The notes beneath the pieces were generated by a model. That model saw only the letters and a list, made by a program, of their open reading frames with translations. It made no database searches and was not told the DNA's origin. Both the position numbers and the translations under genes were made by a program. A DNA stretch of 64,000 nt from Massalongia carnosa (Eukaryota): NCBI GenBank assembly GCA_965645245.1, contig OZ287069.1, positions 2,852,001 through 2,916,000 on the forward strand, written 5' to 3'. Shown in pieces: positions 5,759 to 64,000 of this stretch (its first letter is position 1; every line of letters starts with the position of its first letter).

Positions 5759-6199
5759 GTCGAATCGGAAAGCTGAAAGAGTTTCACGATCACGGTACGC
5801 GTGACCCGTGATCATGGAGTGCACAGATGATGGTCAGATACGGCAATGTCGTTGGCAGACCAACCACCACTTATATTTAGTTTAGGGCCTCTCTTCCCTC
5901 CCCACAGCCATCTTGGAAGCATCGAAGCCAGGGCCCAACACTTCGACTGGCCTTACTGACCCATGCGGTAATGAGGAAGTTGACATCCAAAGTGAGAGGG
6001 TTGTTCGTAGAAACGCCCTACAGCAGCCACACATGTAGAGGGCTGAAGCGTATTACCGCAACCTCCAGCGTAGATTGGGAGCGTAGCTATCGAGTGGAAA
6101 AAGCCTAATGTATTAAATGGCAATGATCCTCCCTTCGCATCAAACCCCTCTCCTCCGACAGTTCTCCGCTGTGCAGCTGCCGTCTTGTCAGGTTACGAA

Positions 6200-6880: not shown

Positions 6881-7697
6881 CTCGACTATTCAGACAGGTC
6901 TAGATCAAATTAGCATATTGGATTCTCGCCAGGAAATGGGAAGTCATACGCTGACCACTACACCGTAGAACCGAATGATAAGAACTAAGAGTAATAATCA
7001 TCAATATATGTAGTATTGGGTATACTTTTAGCATTGATTACTAATAAATATTCGCGGTATATGATCATTTATGTGCAAGGTCATCCGAAGAGTGGGACAC
7101 ACTGGACAACGAGACTAACTTCATTTCGCTTAACGTTTGAAGCCTAAATTTCACTCGCTTTACATAATAAAAAGAAATAAATAAAAAGAAAAGAAAAGAA
7201 AATTTATAAATTATAAATTTACGTTTTTGTTTTGTCGTAATATCGCGATTCGAAACTCATTTGATATTTGTCGTCCGCCGTACGCTGGAATCAGAATCGG
7301 AATGTTTTCCAACCTCGCGATCCCGTATTTAAGCGCGGTCAAGTCTTTTAATTTTCTTGACTTTTTTTAAAGATGTTATTCTTTTTATTAGTTATTAATT
7401 ATTTAAATTTTATAAGAATAAAATGGTTCTCCAAGTAAGTGTTCATGATGATGATGATGATGATGATGTATTTATACTCCGATATGACACCGGCCGTAGG
7501 CCGGCCCATGCGGGCAAAGCTATCTAAGTTATGTTACATGGAAAACCTTTCACAGGTGTAAAAACCATGTCCCTTGATACCCGTCCGATGTGACTACGGG
7601 TCGACGTCGGGCGGGAGACGCAGTGCAAAAGCCGTGTGGGAACTGTAATGCCTTGTGAAAAGAGAAGAAAGAAAGAAAGGTTCAACTATTGTTGATT

Positions 7698-10600
7698 TTA
7701 CAATAATGTTGATGCTAGTGAGAATTGATTCAATAAGCCTGTTTTCATTAGCCAAGCAGTTAGTATCTTCAGAGTTTTTGATGATTTGGTCAGCTGCTGA
7801 TAGTCGCTCGTGCCGGCGGCGCGAAACATCTGTTCTCTATTGTCAATAAGTCTGCAGAACATGATTACATGTTCTGGAGTTTGTCTGTGCCAGCCACATG
7901 AGCAGGCCGGTGAGGTGACGGAGGGCACCCGTCGCTTGTAGAGGAAGTCAGCTAACCCGATTTTGCCAGTGCGGATTTGAGTTGTTAGAGCGCTTTCTGC
8001 CTTTTTTAGCTGCGTGTGTATTTTCAGCCGTTTTTTGCTCAGTGGGACTGATTGTGCTATGGAGGGTTCGATGACGCGATTTTGATATGCGCACCACGAG
8101 TCGTTCCAGACCTTCATTTGTCGTGCTTTGATTGTTTGCATCTGCTTGTGTCGGGCCGTTGCCGCAACGGTAGCTTCGCGGTGCCACGCCGGGTAGACTT
8201 CGAACCATGGTGGGTGTGCCTTTGGTGGTTGAACTATTTTTGAGTCGATCAGTAGGCTTTTGGCCCAGATGTGTTTCAGCTCTCCCGGGGTGGGCTTTTG
8301 AAGTCGTTTGCGACCTGCCTTGCCTCGAAGTTTGTCAGCTATTTTGTTGCATGCGGAGGAGATGATCTTCAATTGGCCTCCGGCTCGGAGCCGGTGCCTT
8401 GCCTGTGCTTGTAGCATGTCGAGATGCGTGTCTATGGGCGCTATGAATGTCTCTGCTTCTAGTACTGAGATGGGAGTGGCTTTAAAGGCACCGGCTATGG
8501 TGCGAAGGCAATTGTTTTGCATGACGGAGAGCTTGCTCGTTGACGTTTTTGACTTTTTGACTTCTTTGGGCATGTGCCATACGGTTGACCCATATGTCAT
8601 GGCCGGACGCACCACGGCACTGTAAACCTGCCTTGCCTTGGCGAAGGTGGCACCCCAGGTTGATGTGGAAATTTTTGTCAATGCCATGGATTGTTTGACC
8701 ATTTTCTCTTGCGTTTTGCGAACGTGCGGTCCCCATTTCAATTTGGTGTCGATTTGTAGGCCCAATACTCTGATGTCCGTTTTAGGTTCAATTTCGGTGC
8801 TAGCAATATTGATGGATGCAGTCATGTTGAATCTTTTGGGATTTCTGGACAAGTGTATGAGTTCGTACTTCGTCGGAGCGAATACGGACCCGTGCCGGGA
8901 AGCCCACGTCTCACATTGTCTGTGTATTGCCTCTAGAGTTTTGCAGTTTTCCTCGGTGCTTTTTCCATATGCCAAAATGTTTGCGTCGTCTACGAATCCT
9001 ATGGCATTTGTGTTTTTGCCTGGTCGATCACATATTTCCAATAGATCTGCATTGTAAAATAGGTAAAGAATGGATGACAGGGGAGAGCCCTGTGGGATAC
9101 CCGTTCTTACCGCAAACCGCCCAGTGACTTTTCGATTTATTGCTAAAGTGGTGCTTCGATCGCTCAGAAAGCTGTTTAGCCAGTCGGTGATCCATTTTGG
9201 AATTTTTCTTTTCCGTAGGTTGTGCGTTAGTCGTTGATGTGATACCGTATCGAACGCGCCGGCGACGTCCATGCTTAGCAGTGTGGCTACTTTGTCTTTT
9301 CCCTGTCCCCAAATCGTGTGAACCTGTTCAGTTAGCAGTTCCAGTGCTGACTCTGTGGATCTGCCCTTCCTTGCTCCCATCTGTGTATCGGGTAGGAGCC
9401 GGTGTTTTTCCGCCAGATAGGTTATTTTCGATCCAATGATGGATTCCATAACTTTACTGAGCGTGTTGAGCAGTGCAATTGGTCGGTAGGCTTTCGGCGT
9501 GGTATAGTCTCCTTTGCCTATTTTTTTCAGCGCTATTGTGTTTGCCATTTTGAAGGCCCGCGGGTGGTACGAGTGTGTGACGCACGCCTGAAACAGAGGT
9601 GTTAGTAGTTCGACAAGTATTTCGCTGCATGCTTTGAGTATTCTGTTAGATATGCCGTCTGGGCCCGGTGCCTTATCGGACTTGAGCCGACTCAGGGCCG
9701 TCGATACTTCTGACTTGGTGATGATTATTGGGCAGTGCGGCGATGTAGGATAGAAGGATCCTTCTATGTCGCTTAGGTCGGCCGGTGGTGGTGCGGGAAA
9801 GAAGACACCTTTCAGCATTTCGGCTTTTTGGTCAAACGTGTCTGCTACTTGGTCATTGAATTTTAGCATCGGCATTTTGGATACTTCTCTAGATTGATGA
9901 CTTTTGTCTTTGGCCCATTTCGCTAGCCGCCATAGTCCCTGAGGCGTTTCGGTGGCCTTATTGATTTCTTGACGAAAGTTTGTTCTCTTTGCCTTTTGAA
10001 TGATTTTCTGTTTTTTATCATTGGATTTCATATAGTTAGACCAGTCCGTTAGGTCTAACGTGCTGGACCATATGCGGCGTAGTTTCCGTGTGGCTTTGGT
10101 GGCAATGCTGCATTCTTCTGTCCAGAATGGCTTAGCATATTCGCTAGATTTTGCCCATGGAACTGCTTCGTTGATGACATTTTGTAGAAATTTTTGAATC
10201 GATTCCGTGTACGCATCAATCTCGGCAGTGGTACGGGGAGACTCCGGTATAGGGGCGTGTCGTTCGGCCTCCCTTAATTTTTCCAGGTTTAGAAGTTTCC
10301 ATGCTCTGCGTTTGATTTTCGGTTGCGGCTCGCTTCCGAGTAGGATGCGGGTTGATATCGGCACGTGATCGGACGATTGATTCAATTCTGGTCTGGACAT
10401 GCAGTGTTCGAGTCTTTCGACTAGGTATTCTGACATGAAAACCAAATCTATCGTGCTAGACGTGTTTCTTGCTTCCCATGTTACGGTGCCTTTCGGCAGT
10501 GTCAACGAAAGATTATGATCATCGATTATTTCCAGTAATTGATCAGCAGCAGCGTGTTGTGTGGGTCTTGAGGGACCATTCCAAAAGGGATGATGCAGGT

Positions 10601-11051
10601 TGAAATCTCCAAGTAGTATGTGATGCGCATCGGCGGTAAGCATGCTCCGAGCCGCCGGTAAGGTCGTGTGACTGTCAGTGGATGAATAGGAAGCGGGAGA
10701 GGGGTTATACACATTATGGACGTGAATTGTTTCCATAACGCCTTCGGTGTAGGTCTTTATTTTCAAAGTGCACATGTCGGCCGAGGTGAATTCCACCTCC
10801 CAGCTGTCAGTGTCTATTAGGTCGTTGACATAAAAGCACACTCTGGTGTCACCTCCTGGGCGGTATAGGAGGTGAAAGCCGCTTTGATGAGAACTAAGCG
10901 ATGTGGGGGCGGATGGATTGCGCCACGGTTCCTGTATTGCAATAATATCATAGTCCTGGGTGTTTGTGTCTGCTAAGAGGGGTATCATAGTACTCACTCT
11001 GTCATTTCTGACATTATACTGCAATATAGAGAGGGATTTTGTGTCCCTCAT
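7698..11051 (-). CDS. LINE ORF2: APE endonuclease + reverse transcriptase + C-terminal cysteine-rich motif; no RNase H motif seen
   Basis: ILQYNV, IAIQEP, GDFNLHH, TIDLVF, SDH (APE); KAPGPDGI, YRPIALL, GIPQGSPLS, FVDD (RT); CSCG..QTPEHVIMFC. Intact 1117 aa. Confidence 0.95.
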   Translation of the reverse strand: MRDTKSLSILQYNVRNDRVSTMIPLLADTNTQDYDIIAIQEPWRNPSAPTSLSSHQSGFHLLYRPGGDTRVCFYVNDLIDTDSWEVEFTSADMCTLKIKTYTEGVMETIHVHNVYNPSPASYSSTDSHTTLPAARSMLTADAHHILLGDFNLHHPFWNGPSRPTQHAAADQLLEIIDDHNLSLTLPKGTVTWEARNTSSTIDLVFMSEYLVERLEHCMSRPELNQSSDHVPISTRILLGSEPQPKIKRRAWKLLNLEKLREAERHAPIPESPRTTAEIDAYTESIQKFLQNVINEAVPWAKSSEYAKPFWTEECSIATKATRKLRRIWSSTLDLTDWSNYMKSNDKKQKIIQKAKRTNFRQEINKATETPQGLWRLAKWAKDKSHQSREVSKMPMLKFNDQVADTFDQKAEMLKGVFFPAPPPADLSDIEGSFYPTSPHCPIIITKSEVSTALSRLKSDKAPGPDGISNRILKACSEILVELLTPLFQACVTHSYHPRAFKMANTIALKKIGKGDYTTPKAYRPIALLNTLSKVMESIIGSKITYLAEKHRLLPDTQMGARKGRSTESALELLTEQVHTIWGQGKDKVATLLSMDVAGAFDTVSHQRLTHNLRKRKIPKWITDWLNSFLSDRSTTLAINRKVTGRFAVRTGIPQGSPLSSILYLFYNADLLEICDRPGKNTNAIGFVDDANILAYGKSTEENCKTLEAIHRQCETWASRHGSVFAPTKYELIHLSRNPKRFNMTASINIASTEIEPKTDIRVLGLQIDTKLKWGPHVRKTQEKMVKQSMALTKISTSTWGATFAKARQVYSAVVRPAMTYGSTVWHMPKEVKKSKTSTSKLSVMQNNCLRTIAGAFKATPISVLEAETFIAPIDTHLDMLQAQARHRLRAGGQLKIISSACNKIADKLRGKAGRKRLQKPTPGELKHIWAKSLLIDSKIVQPPKAHPPWFEVYPAWHREATVAATARHKQMQTIKARQMKVWNDSWCAYQNRVIEPSIAQSVPLSKKRLKIHTQLKKAESALTTQIRTGKIGLADFLYKRRVPSVTSPACSCGWHRQTPEHVIMFCRLIDNREQMFRAAGTSDYQQLTKSSKTLKILTAWLMKTGLLNQFSLASTLL

Positions 11052-12535
11052 AGGATTTCCATCGTTTCGGCCGCTGTGTTCGATGTGACCTGAGTTCCTG
11101 CCGTTAATGCTACGGAATCTGCACGAGGCCTACCCAGCACTGGTTTTGCTAAGGCCTTTACCATATTTTCAGGATTCATGATGCCTATATTAGCCCAGGT
11201 AGGTGCGTCGTCTCCCCGATGAGGGCCCGGGGGTGTGCCGGATGAGGGCGTAGCGTTGTGTATTTTTCTTTTCTTGCCGTTTACTATCTTCCACGTTGAC
11301 GGAATTTCGTCCGTTTGTGTGACTGTGGGTGTCGACTCTCGTTGAAGTTGAAATTGAAATGAGGGCGGCTGTGATTCAATTGCATAGAGGGGGGCGCGGT
11401 TTTGCATTGCTATTTCAGTTTTTCGCTTTTCAGCTAATCTGACTTTGCATGCTGTGGACCATGCCTCGTGTCCCTTCTCTCCGCATACGGCGCAACGGCG
11501 GTATTGTCCCGTTGTCTCCAGATTGCATTCTTTGCTTTGATGTCCACCGGCGCAGTGACCACAGGCGGCGGGATTGCGGCATGCTCTACCGATGTGTCCG
11601 TATTTTTGGCAGTTGAAGCATTGAGTCATGGTGCAACCACGTGTGAAGCGCTCGCAGTCCTTTATTTCGTAGCTTTCCATTAGGCCCTCGGTGATGAGCC
11701 GGTTAGCCATCTCGGCGGTGGCGACCTCTATATGAAGCGTCGAGTACGCTTTTTTCTCTCTAATGGCCTTGATTGACCAGGCTACTTTGACGATCTTCAG
11801 GTTAGGGTGCAGGCGTGCGTTAGCGGCCTGAAGGTAGGTGATGGCTGTTGATTGATTGGCCACTTTGATGTTTTCCACCCTGATTCCATTCGCTCTTACG
11901 GTGAAGGTGCGGGTGTGCACCGCAGCTGAGGCGGCCACCATGCGGGTCTAATCGGTCTTCTCCTGCAGGGTCTTCTTTGCTTCCAATGACTCTGCGTGAA
12001 TCCTGATGTCGCCGTTTAACAAACGCGACACTCCCCTTATTCCTTCAGCTCCATTTTGTAGTGTTTCTACTAACTCCTTGGTTGGCATTAGCTTCATTTT
12101 TTCCTTGTCCGCATCCTCCGTGATGTGAACGGTGATTTCCCGGGCACGTCGCGCTTCTCTTGGTGTGGGTGCTTTGTCTTTGCGGGCCTGTTGAGGCTTG
12201 ACGTTTTGGTTCTTTGGGGGTGCGGGCTCATCTCGGCCTTGCCTTGTGGCAGCAGCGGCATAGCTGCGAGGAGTGGTCTCATTGCGCTCTATGCGTGTCA
12301 ATGATTGTTGGATTGCCTGTAATGTGTCACCTATGTTGTTGGGAGTTTCTGCAACTTTGTCATCGACTAGATTTTGCGCTTGCAAAATTTCCGCAGAGTT
12401 TCTCAGCAACTGCAACGCCTCCGGGTCACCAACGGTGCCCACTCGATCAAGATACTCCTTGATCTTTACGTGTAAAAATTCCCTCCTTTCGCTGTGCGCT
12501 CTCGAGAGCGCGTTTGTTTGTTCGAGTGTAGTCAT
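11048..12535 (-). pseudogene. LINE ORF1 (gag-like, CCHC zinc knuckles) with one in-frame TAG
   Basis: ORFs 11948-12535 and 11048-11941 are in the same frame, separated by GAT-TAG-ACC-CGC-ATG; knuckles CFNCQKYGHIGRAC, CGHCAGGHQSKEC and CAVCGEKGHEAWSTAC. Confidence 0.9.
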
Positions 12536-12701
12536 TTTCGCGACAAGTTTATTTCGGCGGATGTTATATTGATGCCTAAAGATACCATACGAGAATAGTA
12601 TATGGATACAGCCAAACTTCGTAAGTGTTCATTAAAGCTGCAAATCAACTGAATTCTTTCTAGCCTCTAAAAGCCTCTCAGGGCCTCCATTCCGCATTGT
12701 T

Positions 12702-55436: not shown

Positions 55437-56616
55437 CGAGATGCTTAGCCTCTGTGTAAATCTTTACTAGTAAACAGCCATTTTACTAGGGTGCGTACAA
55501 GCTAGCAGTTACACTACGTATTAATAATGTTGCTATTACTGACTAAATGTATTCAACATCTACAAATCTGCCTATTGCGATGACTTCAATTCCAAAAACT
55601 CGTCAATCAATTGCGATACATCATCTTTTCTAGGCTTCATGATTTTAGCCACTTTTCTCATCGTCGTTTCCTTTCTCGCTTGAGTCCTAATCTGTTTGAC
55701 TGATTTCTCGACTCTTTCCTGAGATTCCAACTCCAACTGAGCCTTTGATTTCTTCGTCACATCTCGAGACCTTCGCGTTGTTGCGGAGGAAGTAGGAAGA
55801 ATTTGACTGATGCGCACGTTTTGACTAAGACTATAAAGAGATGAAGGCGGCGCTGCCTGAAATAGTGCTTTTTGACTATGCTTGGCAAGCACATCGTCAA
55901 TATCTTCGAGCGAATCCGACGAGGCTTCTGATGGAAGCATAACATCATTATCGTCATCCGAAGGAAGCATAGGACTCATAGAACGACCGAGAATGGGCTG
56001 AGAGTTTATATACTGCACCTCGTCGTCGTCGGAGACGATAGGCGCGTTTTCGATTCTCTTCATGACTAAGTTTTCTCCTAAATCTATTGTACCTTGTACC
56101 CAATATTAGCCGACCCGAGCGCAATAGTGAGTTCTGTGATCAACGCGAAGCCTTGGGTGAAGGCATAGTCTTGAAGGCGAGTCTTCGCCTTCTTTCAAGA
56201 CGAAAATAACTCATTCTCTTGCGGAGGGAGGAGGTGAGATGGGGGTAGAAGGGCAATGGCATGTTGCTTCCGTGCATTCAAAGAAGTAGGATCGGACTCC
56301 ATCGCGATGAGGAGTAATAAAATATATAATATGAGGTATAGCATAAGTGGAAGGGAGATTTAAGGAGGGCAAAGGGTTAGGACAAGGGCAAGGGCAAATG
56401 GTAAGTGAGGGTGAGGGTGAGGGTATGCTTTATCAGACCGAGCAGGGTAATTATTAGTAGCAATAAACACGTTATACGATTTAAACCGAAAAGAGTTTAA
56501 TGTGCTGTTGACAGCAGCATTACTAGCTTGTACGCACCCTGGATGAGCAGTAAAATGGCTGTTTACTAGTAAAGATTTACACAGGGGAAGGGGGGGGACT
56601 GTCCCTAAGCATCTCG
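55437..56616 (-). mobile_element. Internally deleted Mutator-like element (MULE), non-autonomous
   Basis: 9-bp TSD AATATACTA at 55428-55436 and 56617-56625. Long imperfect TIRs CGAGATGCTTAG..CTGTGTAAATCTTTACTAGTAAACAGCCATTTTACT..AGGGTGCGTACAAGCTAG. Remnant N-terminus LPPSHLLPP..ELFSS*KKAKTRLQDYAFTQGFAL. Confidence 0.85.
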
Positions 56617-60463: not shown

Positions 60464-61317
60464 ATTGGGGGAATATAAAAATAAGGAACTACCTATATTT
60501 ACCAAGAGAATACACGCAATTACTTCAGTGTCAATATTGTAAAAGCAGACAGCCTTTAGTGGGAAAAGGTAAGCTTTATAGGTGGGATCCCAAGGGCTCC
60601 TCGTCTCCCAATCGCCAGTGGCAAGGCTGAAACCCTCGGACGTCAACGTCAGACAAGGCTTCAGGTCAACTAAAGTTACACAACTGGCCACCTGGCTTCC
60701 GCTCCCGCGATTTATTTATGGTTAGTAAAGCCTATGTTATTGGTGACTTCACAAGCCAATTGGAATCATGTACGAACATAAGCGAACATTCGCATTTCGA
60801 CATAACGCTATACTTGGAAACTCTGTGCTTGCGTGGCTTTCGACAAAGCGGAGTCTGAATAACGTTGGAAAGGGCCTTTAGAGCGCCAAAACGCTACACC
60901 TAGATCTACAGCGTGCTCTGGATGTAAGTGGTTAGTTAGCTGGAGATTCTATTGATGGTTTGATAGAGGGACGGCTTGGCTTGGACTACTCGTACAGACA
61001 TAAGCCTATCAAATGGCAGGTTTTTACAATCAGTTCAACTAGCTCTACGACGGTTGATACTTTTTAACGTATCACCAAATCATGAAGAAGATTGCCATTC
61101 AGCCACCACTTCTCCAACTCTCTCACGATGAGCTTGTAGTCAGGCGCGTACCTTTTGGCTTGAAAAATGCTCTTCTTTGCCTCGTCAGTCCTCTCAAGGC
61201 CTCGACACGCGATAGCCATTCGAAAATGCACATTGCCTTTTCAGCATTCATGATCAGTGTATCAGCACCTTCAAGAATACTTTAGTGCACGTTCCTATGT
61301 TCAATATCCGATGCCAC

Positions 61318-61390
61318 GGCTGGCAACGAGGACCACCTGTACGCGGTGCCGGCTACGAACCTTCTGCTTGCCAGAAGAGCCAAGTGTCTC
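61318..61390 (+). ncRNA. HDV-like (delta-like) self-cleaving ribozyme, predicted
   Basis: P1 GGCUGGC/GCCGGCU with G1-U wobble; P3 ACC/GGU; L3 UGUACGC; P1.1 GU/AC; P4 CUUCUG/CAGAAG; J4/2 GCCAA (C61380 = C75 equivalent); P2 GAGGACC/GUGUCUC (imperfect). Confidence 0.8.
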
Positions 61391-62600
61391 TCTCCCCTTC
61401 GGTGACGGGTGGGTGTCGGAGGTGAATCGGGGGGTGGGTGAGCACTCCGTGCGGTTTCACCAAAGCACACACATCGCGACGAAAGTTGAGTATCGAAAGA
61501 ACGAACCACAAACGCCATAGTTCTCGAGGTGTTTCCTGAAGGACACAGTCATAGGAGGAGTAGCTCCTAATCTGGGGGTCGAGGAAGAGTCGAACTGCCA
61601 CAAACGCGAAAGGGGTGACGCCCGACAGTCCTCGTACCCGTACGAGGGCCGACACGTTTACGATTCGACTACGAAGCGATTTACCGGGTGGAAAACAGAG
61701 TTTTCGGTCACACCAAAGAGCACGAGAGTATTGCTCCCATCGAAGTAAGAGCTTGGGAAGGCGGACGAGTCGGCACAGCCTCGAGGGGTCCTCGGAGGGA
61801 GCACATGGGAAGGCGGGCGAGTCGGTACAGCCTGAAAAGGAATAATGAGGCATAAGGGACTCCCGTTGGGGCTCGTTTGTGACGGCTATGTCACCGACGA
61901 CCTCACCGCGGCCGGTGTACGTATATGACTTCAGGAATAGTCCTTGCTACTCTACAAGCTTGGTGCCCTAGTTCTTTTCGAAGAACGGTCAAACTACGAC
62001 ACGGTATTGAGGCCTGGTGGAAGGTGCACTTCTCTACCTTATTATTCTCGGAAAGGCCTCTGACCCATGGTTTTCGAGGTGGATGCAACGAGGTCATCTG
62101 ACCCATGACTTATAACGAAGGCGTATGCACATTCGGTCGACTTGAAGGGATAGAGGTGACGACATCGACACGTACGAGCAGCGATAGGCATGTCGAGGGC
62201 GATAGACACACAAAAACAGTCAAAAGTGGGAGCAGGAATACATCTGGATTTGATTTCGATCTACTGGATGACCCGGCTCGGAGGGGATACGGGGGTCTTC
62301 CGCTGAGTCCCCGCTGGATAACGATTCGAGATCAAAACGACCAAGGCTCAAAAAAGTCCCTACCCTGACCATAGTGCGCGATTCATCGTGCCATTTCTTT
62401 TTCTTTCTGGTCATGCAGTCCGCATAGACGTCCGAATCCGTTCCGGCCCCAAGGAGTCGGTGATGGAGTGTTGAAACACAGGGTTTTTGTCACCTCGTAA
62501 GGTTTTTTCACCCCTGTATATAGCCCCATAGATGTGCCCGCATGGGCCGTCCTTCGGACGGTGCCACATCGGAGAATGAATTATCATCATCATCATCATC
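61318..62600 (+). mobile_element. Non-autonomous non-LTR retroelement (SINE/SIDE-like) with 5' HDV-like ribozyme and Tad1-LINE-like 3' tail
   Basis: 14-bp TSD ATATCCGATGCCAC at 61304-61317 and 62601-62614; (CAT)n tail 62583-62600; the 3' ~200 nt resembles the LINE 3' UTR at 7470-7680; no RT or gag coding inside. Confidence 0.88.
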
Positions 62601-64000
62601 ATATCCGATGCCACACGTTCGCCCCAGAAGTGAGCCATCTCCCAATCCTCGAGCTTTATGTACGCCTGGACGATGTTCCAGTTGAGCTGCGAGCCAAGTT
62701 TGTGTCGAAGGAGATCTCCTCGTTGGCCGGCAAGCTTGCCCTCAAGCGGCGTGGTGGCGAAGTAGCCGTCGAGCAGTACTGCGTATGTTCGCCCGTCGAT
62801 AATGGTATGCATAGCTTCATATGCTTCATGGTACTTCTGGATGCTTAGCATAAAGCCTCCAGCCTTGAAGGCAGCGTTGCCTTCTAGCTTCAGTTTTCCG
62901 GCATTCTCAAGAAAATCTGTGGGAGTTGGATTCGGGATTTTCATGGCTTTCTTCAGTTGCTTTTCTGCCGATTTCAGTTTGCAACCTTCGATCGAGACAT
63001 TGCGAATATGCTTCAGTATGGCAAATGGCATCAACAGCGATTCTTGCAATAGTTTAGGGGGAACCGTAGGCTTCGTTGCATACGAGTCCTTGATAATCAA
63101 TTGAAGAAATATGCCCCGAAAAAAGCCGAATTCCTGATAGTCAAAATAATATAATAATTTGCACAGCTGAGGAAGATCGTCTACACATGTGATGTAGGTT
63201 TAAAGTGTTTTTGATTTGACGTCGACTATAAGATCTAGGCGAACGGAGAGGTGGTATTACTTGAAAGATGTTGCTTTTGCGCCCTGGCCTATTATGGGAA
63301 ATTTCCCTGACAAGGGACTTGAAATCTCTCCAAGCCGTGGTAATCTAGATGAACTTGTTCTTGTGAAAAACGCCCTTGGCTTCATCGTGAATCTGCCGAT
63401 TTGTACGGAGGATAGCCACAACGAGATCATAGCAAGAAAAGCCAAACTCAACGTACCGTTTAGTGCGCCTGGTGGAAAGCAAGTTGCTGTAGACTTGCAG
63501 ACGAAGCTCCAATGGTAGACCGAGGAACCTGAACCCATTCAGCAACTGGTGGTGTTCCTTGAAGCTATCAAACTTTGGAGATCCAGGATCTGGCGATATG
63601 ACAGGATTATCAATTACTACAGAAGGGGAGGAGCGGGAGAGAACTTTCTTCCAACGTAAGGTTACGGGATCTAATACATATCTAGGGCATTTTTTCAACC
63701 TCGTGTTGAGTCCAGCAAAAAAAAAAATTGGGAGTTATATCTAAGTTGCCCATGTTCTTATGTATGAGGGTTCACAAAAACATTGATAGCAAGGACGAAT
63801 TAGGCATAGGGGAAGCTTTATTAGCATTTGTACCTCACAAATCTCTTGAAACGTGCCGAGTTTTACCACATCAATCATACTTTATGTTCACTGGGAAAGA
63901 ACCCAATTTGTAAAATACGAGTTGAATTTCATTGCAACGAGCATTAGTTATGAAAGCTATCGCCGAGGTGCTATCGCAAGATGCGTGGTGTGCGCCATGT

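What the first reader, a model, noticed from the sequence alone, without database searches (positions are those of the whole stretch)
61318..61390. HDV-like ribozyme fold with covariant P1.1 and cleavage site exactly at the TSD junction
Hand mapping onto the genomic HDV ribozyme: P1 61318-61324/61348-61354, P2 61328-61334/61384-61390, P3 61335-61337/61345-61347, L3 U-G-U-A-C-G-C (keeps the U20, C24, G25 and C26 equivalents), P4 61361-61366/61372-61377, J4/2 G-C-C-A-A. The usual CC/GG P1.1 is replaced by GU (61339-61340)/AC (61355-61356), a double compensatory change. The predicted scissile bond coincides with the element boundary defined independently by the TSD. P2 has only ~5 of 7 pairs, so this copy may be weakened.
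Basis: partly seen in the sequence, partly recalled or inferred. Interest (0 to 1): 0.85.

Follow-up and report, generated by a model that had tools for sequence, protein, structure and literature searches.

The report
Ribozyme head of a fungal retrotransposon
The first 75 bases of a small jumping-gene copy fold like the self-cutting RNA of hepatitis delta virus, a known way for such elements to trim their RNA to an exact start, and many related copies support the fold.

Summary
A 1285-bp non-coding non-LTR retrotransposon (61318-62602, +) is flanked by an exact 12-bp target-site duplication. Its last 76 bases, with an (ATC)n tail, match the 3' end of a LINE in the same window. It begins at G1 of an HDV-like double-pseudoknot fold.

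Support:
- Rfam's HDV model is the best of 4227 families on this stretch and puts G1 at 61318. At 20.2 bits it is far below its gathering score of 50.
- A loose HDV descriptor hits the window once, here, against 1 hit in 150 random windows.
- A 23-base core pattern found more than 120 loci in metagenome contigs: 65 distinct insertion sites and 23 unrelated downstream sequence clusters. Conservation starts exactly at G1.
- At 10 of 11 other distinct sites that have a duplication, it abuts G1.
- In 34 distinct sequences, P1, P2 and P4 covary: 95.5% of cells are paired against 32-53% in slid controls, and 11 pairs change on both sides against 1-4.

Corrections and limits:
- J4/2 is AGCCAAGU (61378-61385, catalytic C 61380).
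- P2 is 61328-61333 with 61386-61390/91 and a bulged or wobbling G.
- The GU/AC P1.1 is invariant, but the search pattern fixed it, so it is untested.
- Cleavage itself is not shown.

Verdict: a real HDV-like ribozyme at the 5' end of a fungal retrotransposon, a new member of a known kind.

The parts
61306..61317 (+). 5' copy of the 12-bp target-site duplication ATCCGATGCCAC
   Evidence: Exact repeat of 62603-62614.
61318..61391 (+). HDV-like ribozyme fold, from G1 (61318) to the end of the P2 3' strand
   Evidence: Rfam HDV model at 61316-61391, 20.2 bits. Family model R1 scores 84 bits and is the only strong hit in the window. The descriptor's only hit in the window.
61318..61324 (+). P1 5' strand, pairs with 61348-61354
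   Evidence: 7 of 7 pairs in the window. In A1, 99.2% of cells are paired, and pair 5-33 is AU in 26 and GC in 8.
61328..61333 (+). P2 5' strand GAGGAC, pairs with 61386-61390/91. 61334 is the unpaired C between P2 and P3.
   Evidence: The register is set by relatives: 5 of 6 P2 pairs change on both sides. C61333-G61386 corresponds to U-A in L008.
61335..61347 (+). P3 (61335-61337 with 61345-61347) closing L3 TGTACGC (61338-61344). L3 G61339 and T61340 form P1.1 with C61356 and A61355.
   Evidence: Read. Invariant in every match, but fixed by the search pattern.
61348..61356 (+). P1 3' strand (61348-61354) and P1.1 3' strand AC (61355-61356)
61357..61377 (+). J1.1/4 GAAC (61357-61360) and P4 hairpin (61361-61366 with 61372-61377, loop 61367-61371)
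   Evidence: 5 of 7 P4 pairs change on both sides among relatives, and P4 length runs from 20 to about 46 nt. 61376 A>G in run X5 keeps a U.G pair.
61378..61385 (+). J4/2 AGCCAAGT with the presumed catalytic C at 61380
   Evidence: Alignment column 74 is C in 31 of 34 and T in 3. Column 75 varies between C and T.
61386..61391 (+). P2 3' strand GTCTC(T)
61318..62602 (+). Whole element: 1285-bp non-coding, non-autonomous non-LTR retrotransposon
   Evidence: Bounded by the duplication. No Pfam hit for its ORFs. No significant match to the LINE proteins (best E 0.06). No tRNA-like head. Word depth inside it is 3-5 times the flank in 4 runs.
62528..62602 (+). 3' module shared with the LINE: stem-loop region plus (ATC)n tail (62583-62602)
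   Evidence: 85.5% identity over 76 nt with 7523-7448 on the minus strand. Word depth here is about 75 times the flank.
62603..62614 (+). 3' copy of the target-site duplication
7445..12620 (-). Candidate partner LINE: a 195-aa ORF, a CCHC ORF1, an APE+RT ORF2, an (ATC)n tail and the 10-bp duplication GAACACTTAC. It has no ribozyme head.
   Evidence: Pfam RVT_1 1.2e-29, Exo_endo_phos_2 1.7e-21, zf-CCHC 3e-5. Ends read. Model R1 finds nothing near 12620.

Best explanation
Positions 61318-61391 encode an HDV-like self-cleaving ribozyme that forms the 5' head of a short non-autonomous non-LTR retrotransposon of a fungus. Runs that hold the locus include a lichen metagenome.

Proposed mechanism:
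1. The element is transcribed as part of a longer RNA, or from a promoter of its own.
2. The nested double pseudoknot (P1, P1.1, P2, P3, P4) folds. The cytosine at 61380 in J4/2 and a metal ion bound at the L3 U.G pair catalyse scission of the bond 5' of G61318.
3. The RNA therefore begins exactly at G1.
4. A LINE reverse transcriptase, supplied in trans, recognises the shared 3' stem-loop and (ATC)n tail. It copies the RNA by target-primed reverse transcription up to G1.
5. New copies therefore carry a target-site duplication that abuts G1.

Shown here: the fold, its covariation, the conserved core, the exact 5' boundary at many sites, and the shared 3' tail.

Inferred: cleavage itself, its chemistry, mobilisation in trans, and the source of transcription.
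For: 1. Fold and boundary in the window.
2. Specificity: one descriptor hit in the window against 1 in 150 random windows. R1 scores 84 bits here, and the next hit in the window scores 13 bits.
3. Other copies in runs that hold the locus. Contigs with unlike upstream sequence start to match at 61318. A second subfamily has P1 GGCCAGC, a perfectly complementary P2, a different P4 loop and unrelated downstream sequence. Word depth of the head is about 10 times the flank.
4. The core pattern found at least 120 metagenome loci. That gives 63 distinct sequences by a loose parse and 54 by a stricter one.
5. There are 65 distinct insertion sites. Information content rises from 0.06 bit at -1 to 1.73 bits at +1.
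6. Covariation on 34 distinct sequences:
   - 95.5% of cells paired, against 32-53% when partners are slid.
   - 11 pairs with changes on both sides, against 1-4.
   - 82 such cells, against 2-17, and no shuffle of 500 reached that.
   - P2, the pseudoknot helix, changes on both sides in 5 of 6 pairs; P4 in 5 of 7.
7. 13 of 35 loci with enough downstream DNA show exact duplications of 10-15 bp. These are 11 distinct sites, and the duplication abuts G1 at 10 of them.
8. The head is shared by 23 clusters of otherwise dissimilar downstream sequence, so it is conserved as a module.
9. Some head-bearing copies carry remnants of LINE ORF1 or ORF2.
10. Published passages:
   - HDV-like ribozymes process the 5' ends of R2 (PMC3774820) and L1Tc (PMC3185411).
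   - Fungal HDV variants with an extra C between P2 and P3 cleave in vitro (PMC5640933).
Against: - No cleavage assay was done, and no RNA run was listed.
- Rfam RF00094 scores 20.2 bits against a gathering score of 50. No hit reached any gathering threshold.
- Nested folding energy is no better than shuffles (z 0.38).
- P3, L3 and P1.1 never vary, but the search pattern fixed them, so these core elements have no covariation support.
- The flipped G-C pair in P1.1 is not the canonical C-G.
- The window copy's P2 has a bulge or a mismatch.
- 3 of 34 aligned relatives have T at the catalytic C.
- The four loci of two excluded sequences (L054; L061, L063, L086) have an A.G mismatch at the first P1 pair.
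- An exact 5' end could in principle also come from a fixed transcription start.
Confidence: 0.85

Rival explanations
1. The family ribozyme is real, but this window copy is catalytically weak or dead: a fossil insertion whose P2 has lost a base.
For: P2 in the window has a bulged G, or without a gap 1 mismatch and 2 G.U pairs. Close relatives such as L008 and L029 have 6 perfect pairs.
Against: - The core, P1, P3, P1.1, P4 and C61380 are all intact.
- Published passages say about a third of R2 ribozymes have mismatches in P2 (PMC3774820).
- Word depth suggests 3-5 near-identical copies in 4 runs, which points to recent activity.
Confidence: 0.2
2. The conserved 5' module is a structured RNA with another role and does not cleave: an internal promoter, a binding site for the reverse transcriptase or ORF1 protein, or a translation element. 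The exact 5' end then comes from transcription initiation at G1.
For: - The boundary evidence fits a fixed transcription start equally well.
- In L1Tc the same 77 nt are both promoter and ribozyme (PMC3383444, abstract in the listing).
- No cleavage data exist here.
Against: The covarying helices are those of the HDV double pseudoknot, including the interleaved P2. The conserved single-stranded letters fall at the published catalytic positions: the L3 U, C and G, and the J4/2 C followed by adenines. HDV is the best Rfam family. A second role is not excluded and may coexist.
Confidence: 0.08
3. Chance resemblance to the HDV fold at the end of a repeat.
For: The Rfam score is below threshold, and the folding energy is unremarkable.
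Against: - 1 descriptor hit in 150 random windows.
- More than 120 homologous loci with compensatory changes.
- Conservation of the head across 23 unrelated downstream clusters.
Confidence: 0.01

Closest known systems
HDV genomic and antigenomic ribozymes (Rfam RF00094)
   Same: - Same order of helices, with a 7-bp P1 that starts with G.U.
- 3-bp P3 and 7-nt L3 with U, C and G at the same places.
- 2-bp P1.1 and a 4-nt J1.1/4.
- J4/2 is G-C-N-A-A. The model aligns end to end.
   Different: - P1.1 is G-C plus U-A instead of C-G plus C-G (the canonical pair is from the PMC6326823 passages).
- There is one more nucleotide after P4 and two more before the P2 3' strand.
- There is a C between P2 and P3.
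- The score is only 20.2 bits against the gathering score of 50.
- The genomic setting is a retrotransposon, not a circular RNA replicon.
HDV-like ribozymes at the 5' ends of non-LTR retrotransposons: R2, and R4 and Dong (PMC3774820); L1Tc with its non-autonomous NARTc (PMC3185411, PMC3383444); RTE and Baggins (as summarised in PMC6765202)
   Same: - The ribozyme is the first sequence of the element, and cleavage 5' of G1 defines the element's RNA 5' end.
- Non-autonomous derivatives share the head.
- P2 and P4 are loosely constrained.
   Different: - The hosts here are fungal.
- Insertion is not site-specific: the flanks are unrelated.
- The tails are simple repeats of several kinds.
- The head is joined to at least 23 dissimilar bodies.
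- No cleavage data exist.
Fungal HDV ribozyme variants of Li and Breaker 2017 (PMC5640933; passages and Table S1 read, Stockholm alignments unreadable here)
   Same: Fungal origin, an extra nucleotide (usually C) between P2 and P3, many copies per genome, and 'widely variable gene associations'.
   Different: - That paper describes a C-G pair at the cleavage site. Here it is G.U in 32 of 34.
- That paper describes an E-loop replacing part of P4. Here P4 is an ordinary covarying helix.
- That paper's main text does not mention transposons.
- I could not test whether the two sets overlap.

Membership tests
HDV-like self-cleaving ribozymes (structure-defined family) | Nested double pseudoknot: P1, P2, P3, P4 and P1.1 in the canonical order | tested here: met
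   All five helices can be drawn in the window. In 34 distinct relatives 95.5% of cells are paired, against 32-53% in slid controls. P1, P2 and P4 show changes on both sides.
HDV-like self-cleaving ribozymes (structure-defined family) | G1 at the cleavage site, paired with a pyrimidine (G1-Y37). Feature from the PMC6326823 and PMC8495972 passages. | tested here: met
   G61318 pairs with T61354. The pair is GU in 32 of 34 and AU in 2 of 34. Position 1 is G at 62 of 65 sites.
HDV-like self-cleaving ribozymes (structure-defined family) | L3 with the conserved U, C and G (U20, C24 and G25 of HDV) | tested here: met
   T61338, C61342 and G61343. Their invariance among relatives comes from the search pattern.
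HDV-like self-cleaving ribozymes (structure-defined family) | Catalytic cytosine at the start of J4/2, followed by adenines | tested here: met
   C61380 lies in AGCCAAGT. The column is C in 31 of 34, and the next column varies between C and T.
HDV-like self-cleaving ribozymes (structure-defined family) | P1.1: two pairs between L3 positions 2-3 and the two nucleotides 3' of P1, canonically C-G and C-G | tested here: inconclusive
   Two Watson-Crick pairs are possible (G61339-C61356 and T61340-A61355), but of other composition. They are invariant, and a looser pattern that freed these four letters found only one more locus with the same letters. There is no covariation.
HDV-like self-cleaving ribozymes (structure-defined family) | Mg2+-dependent self-scission that gives a 5'-OH and a 2',3'-cyclic phosphate | not testable with these tools
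   No assay was possible, and no RNA run was listed.
Rfam RF00094 HDV_ribozyme | Score at or above the gathering threshold (50 bits) | tested here: not met
   20.2 bits, E 0.79. No gathering-level hit in the window. No HDV hit at E up to 1 in 10 relatives' loci.
Fungal HDV variants (Li and Breaker 2017) | Extra nucleotide, usually C, between P2 and P3 | tested here: met
   C61334. The column is invariant but was part of the search pattern.
Fungal HDV variants (Li and Breaker 2017) | C-G pair at the cleavage site | tested here: not met
   GU in 32 of 34 and AU in 2 of 34. I could not see that paper's figure or alignment, so which pair it means is uncertain.
Fungal HDV variants (Li and Breaker 2017) | E-loop replacing part of P4 | tested here: inconclusive
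   P4 pairs 46-50 with 65-69 covary as a plain helix. The two basal pairs and GAAC never vary, so a conserved motif at the base cannot be excluded.
Ribozyme-headed non-LTR retrotransposons (R2, L1Tc/NARTc type) | The ribozyme's G1 is the first base of the element, next to the target-site duplication | tested here: met
   True in the window and at 10 of 11 other distinct sites with a duplication. There is a step in information content at +1.
Ribozyme-headed non-LTR retrotransposons (R2, L1Tc/NARTc type) | Dependence on a LINE reverse transcriptase: own ORF2, or a shared 3' end | tested here: met
   76-nt 3' end 85.5% identical to that of an APE+RT LINE in the window. ORF1 and ORF2 remnants lie behind the head in L019, L022 and L012. 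Actual mobilisation is not testable.

The most novel reading that the evidence does not exclude
This may be a distinct fungal lineage of HDV-like ribozymes with a fixed, non-canonical P1.1 (G-C plus U-A). It would act as a portable, promoter-less 5' head that has been joined again and again to different LINE 3' tails, making many families of SINE-like parasites.

The same reading may explain the 'widely variable gene associations' of the fungal HDV variants described in 2017: they would be retrotransposon heads rather than gene regulators.
Probability: 0.45. Interest if true: 0.55.

Novelty: new member of a known kind. Interest (0 to 1): 0.45.

Why it matters
This gives a concrete, testable case of ribozyme-defined 5' ends in fungal LINE and SINE-like elements. 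Ribozyme processing of non-LTR retrotransposon 5' ends is established in animals and trypanosomes.

In fungi, HDV-like ribozymes were reported without a stated link to transposons, in the passages I could read. My searches found no paper that joins ribozymes with Tad1-type fungal non-LTR elements or with lichens.

- For annotation, the head marks full-length 5' ends of otherwise featureless repeats.
- For ribozyme biology, the invariant G-C/U-A P1.1 is a natural variant of the active-site pseudoknot that is worth a kinetic test.

Tried and rejected
- Rfam at gathering thresholds: 0 hits in the window.
- No whole genome is held for this window. The records behind the loci are not held either.
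- Earlier findings of this scan: nothing by sequence, place or words.
- Sequencing runs: no RNA holder listed, so nothing can be said on expression or RNA 5' ends.
- Freeing the four P1.1 letters in the pattern:
  - 1 locus in genome contigs, with the same letters.
  - 0 in viral contigs.
- Model R1 on the window: nothing at the LINE 5' end. The next hit, 5881-5952 (-), scores 13.1 bits at E 0.18 and lacks the core, so I judge it chance.
- R1 on loci L001-L080 found two extra copies, L002:1544-1629 and L016:1588-1681. They are AT-rich, riddled with transitions, and uninformative on function.
- R1 alignments misplace the P2 5' strand where J1/2 is long, so I used the MAFFT alignment A1 of standard-length members instead.
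- tRNA-derived SINE head: ARAGORN finds none.
- The bacterial promoter and terminator scan is irrelevant to a eukaryote and found nothing.
- Nested folding: z 0.38.
- Papers not held: PMC3256349, PMC3308841, PMC3159031 and PMC1369799.
- The Stockholm alignments of PMC5640933 cannot be read here. They may show whether this family was already in that set.
- The second Rfam hit, a trypanosomatid snoRNA at 16.3 bits and E 1.7, is chance.

Full report
**What is in the window.** The window is eukaryotic. Its ORFs include a NUP159/214 propeller, ankyrin repeats, an EF-Tu-type GTPase and a PfkB kinase.

A non-LTR LINE lies on the minus strand at 7445-12620. It has a CCHC ORF1, an ORF2 with endonuclease and reverse-transcriptase domains, an (ATC)n tail and a 10-bp duplication.

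The finding lies at the start of a second, smaller element. Reading the sequence gives an exact 12-bp duplication, ATCCGATGCCAC, at 61306-61317 and 62603-62614. It brackets 61318-62602, which is 1285 bp.

- This element has no ORF with a Pfam hit.
- It has no significant similarity to the LINE proteins.
- It has no tRNA-like head.
- Its last 76 bases (62528-62602) are 85.5% identical to the 3' end of the LINE (7523-7448, minus strand), and it ends in (ATC)n.

It is therefore a non-autonomous element that shares its 3' recognition end with a LINE.

- P1 has 7 of 7 pairs and starts with G61318.T61354.
- P3 has 3 pairs, and L3 reads TGTACGC.
- P1.1 is G61339-C61356 plus T61340-A61355.
- P4 has 6 pairs, and there is a C at 61380.

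Rfam finds nothing at gathering thresholds. In E-value mode on 61200-61500 the best of 4227 families is HDV_ribozyme. It aligns end to end (model 1-89) at 61316-61391 and puts G1 at 61318, with 20.2 bits and E 0.79. That is far below the family's gathering score of 50.

A loose descriptor uses the published conserved letters (G1-Y, L3 U..CG, C in J4/2) and the five helices. It hits the window once on both strands, at 61318, and hit once in 150 first-order Markov random windows. I wrote it after seeing the candidate.

Nested folding contains P1 and P4 but is no better than shuffles (z 0.38).

**Other copies in runs that hold the locus.** Five public runs hold the stretch. One is labelled a lichen metagenome, and no RNA run is listed. 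I laid contigs of four runs at 80% likeness.

- In run X1 the word depth is 434 in the flank, 4661 in the bin with the ribozyme, 1227-2528 inside the element and 32387 at the 3' tail. The other three runs show the same pattern.
- In three runs, two contigs each begin to match exactly at 61318, with unlike sequence upstream.
- A second subfamily matches only from 61334 onward.
  - Its upstream letters give a P1 5' strand GGCCAGC and a P2 5' strand GAGATC.
  - Its downstream letters give a different P4 loop, a P4 3' strand that keeps pairing through a wobble, the same AGCCAA, and a P2 3' strand GATCTC that is perfectly complementary.
  - Unrelated sequence follows.

**Relatives elsewhere.** I scanned the metagenome contigs with a 23-base pattern taken from the window (61334-61356, three positions free). 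The 80 named loci come from 17 assembly prefixes of one series and 7 other sets.

- The matches comprise 63 distinct ribozyme sequences by a loose parse and 54 by a stricter one.
- Of 123 matches (window and L121 included), 120 have a P1 of at least 6 of 7 pairs and 20 nt of upstream sequence. The other three are 5'-truncated or cut.
- These 120 fall into 65 distinct insertion sites.
- Across the 65 sites, information content is 0.01-0.19 bit at positions -12 to -1 and 1.73 bits at +1. Position 1 is G in 62 and A in 3.
- 35 distinct loci had at least 600 nt downstream. Of these, 13 show an exact duplication of 10-15 bp within the DNA held. Three of the 13 are the same site in different assemblies, which leaves 11 distinct sites.
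- At 10 of the 11 sites the duplication abuts G1. At one it ends 2 nt before G1.
- The other 22 loci showed no duplication within 761-3046 nt.
- Element lengths run from 569 to 2774 bp. Tails are A-rich, (CAAA)n, (CA)n, (TTA)n or (TCAAA)n.
- Several ORFs downstream are host genes (ESCO acetyltransferase, MFAP1), which confirms that many elements are short.
- Three loci carry degenerate LINE ORF1 or ORF2 remnants behind the head: L019, L022 and L012, at 31-57% identity to the window's LINE.
- I took the 200 nt that follow the ribozyme in the 51 distinct sequences that have at least 150 nt downstream. They fall into 23 clusters with no detectable similarity between clusters.

The head is thus conserved as a module while the bodies differ.

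**Covariation.** I aligned 34 distinct sequences with MAFFT (alignment A1, 88 columns).

- 36 sequences had the standard architecture: 15-16 nt from G1 to the core, a P4 region of at most 30 nt, and at least 4 of 6 P2 pairs.
- I left out L054 and L061 for their long P4. They also have an A.G mismatch at the first P1 pair.
- The 18 sequences of other lengths were not aligned.

Counting the five helices, pseudoknots included:

| Measure | Observed | Control |
|---|---|---|
| Cells forming a standard pair | 95.5% | 32.4-52.9% with 3' partners slid by 1-3 columns |
| Pairs changed on both sides | 11 | 1-4 (slid) |
| Cells changed on both sides | 82 | 2-17 (slid); 0 of 500 shuffles reach 82 |

Two coarser measures, pairs with a change and further pair types, do not exceed the shuffles (107 and 316 of 500).

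By helix:
- P1: 1 of 7 pairs changes on both sides (pair 5-33 is AU in 26 and GC in 8), and 3 vary on one side.
- P2: 5 of 6 pairs change on both sides.
- P4: 5 of 7 pairs change on both sides.
- P3 and P1.1 never vary.

One subfamily uses a P2 register with a bulged base in the 3' strand.

The invariance of P3, L3, P1.1 and the C before P3 was imposed by the search pattern and says nothing. A pattern that freed the four P1.1 letters found one more locus with the same letters in genome contigs and none in viral contigs.

**Corrections to the hand mapping.** The alignment fixes J4/2 as eight letters, AGCYNAGN. In the window this is AGCCAAGT at 61378-61385.

- The first C (61380) is C in 31 of 34 sequences, and the second varies between C and T. 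This supports C61380 as the catalytic base.
- P2 is 61328-61333 with 61386-61391.
  - Without a gap it has three Watson-Crick pairs, two G.U pairs and one A.C mismatch.
  - With G61331 bulged it has five Watson-Crick pairs.
- Compared with close relatives that have GAGGAT/ATCCTC, the window copy has a compensated pair (C61333-G61386 for U-A) and appears to have lost one C from the 3' strand.

**Mechanism and rivals.** The best reading is a self-cleaving HDV-like ribozyme that trims the element's RNA to start at G1. A LINE enzyme that recognises the shared 3' end then reverse-transcribes it.

The fold, its covariation, the boundary and the shared tail are shown. Cleavage and mobilisation in trans are inferred from the known behaviour of three groups:
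- R2 (PMC3774820, abstract and sections read);
- L1Tc (PMC3185411, passages);
- fungal HDV variants that cleave in vitro (PMC5640933, passages and Table S1).

A fixed transcription start could give the same boundary. It would not explain an HDV-type double pseudoknot with the catalytic letters in place. The -1 base is G at only 9 of 65 sites. This fits the published poor cleavage after G (PMC8495972, passage) but is a weak signal.

The window copy may be weaker than its relatives because of its P2.

**Comparison with known systems and novelty.** The element works like the ribozyme heads of R2, L1Tc/NARTc, RTE and Baggins.

It shares the extra C between P2 and P3 with the fungal variants of Li and Breaker. 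It does not show their C-G pair at the cleavage site, nor an evident E-loop in P4. I could not read their alignments, and their main text does not mention transposons.

- A search for ribozyme, non-LTR and Tad1 found no paper.
- A search for 'self-cleaving ribozyme' and lichen found six papers, none of them relevant.
- The R2 paper states that only the catalytic C and four other positions are invariant in R2 ribozymes. A non-canonical P1.1 composition is therefore not new in kind.

I rate this a new member of a known kind, of moderate interest. It is a solid comparative case and a good candidate for a simple cleavage assay.

Noticed in passing
window 7445-12620 (-): A LINE with a 195-aa ORF, a CCHC ORF1 and an APE+RT ORF2, an (ATC)n tail and the 10-bp duplication GAACACTTAC (12630-12621 and 7444-7435). 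Its 5' end has no ribozyme head by model R1. It is either 5'-truncated or a head-less family.
   Followed up: partly
window 55449-55505 and 56523-56587: An inverted repeat of about 60 nt at 86% identity flanks a 163-aa ORF on the minus strand (55572-56063). It may be the ends of another mobile element.
   Followed up: no
L121:281-375 (+): A ribozyme head of this family lies about 1.6 kb from the end of a 291-kb contig titled as a bacterial (Solirubrobacteraceae) metagenome-assembled genome. Eukaryotic contamination or a chimeric contig seems likely.
   Followed up: no
L002:1544-1629 (+); L016:1588-1681 (-): Degenerate head copies with 31-40% GC and many C-to-T and G-to-A changes. The pattern is reminiscent of fungal repeat-induced point mutation.
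   Followed up: partly
65 insertion sites, position -1 (loci): G is the rarest base just before the cleavage site (9 of 65, against C 21, T 19, A 16). This fits the published poor cleavage after G, but the signal is weak.
   Followed up: partly
window 5881-5952 (-): A weak hit of the family model (13.1 bits, E 0.18) has P1-like and P4-like parts, but the P3/L3 core is missing. It is probably chance.
   Followed up: no
tails of elements in L001, L008, L010, L012, L016, L028, L034 and L073: The same 5' head is combined with at least five kinds of simple-repeat 3' tail: A-rich, (CAAA)n, (CA)n, (TTA)n and (TCAAA)n, plus (ATC)n in the window. This suggests several LINE partners.
   Followed up: partly
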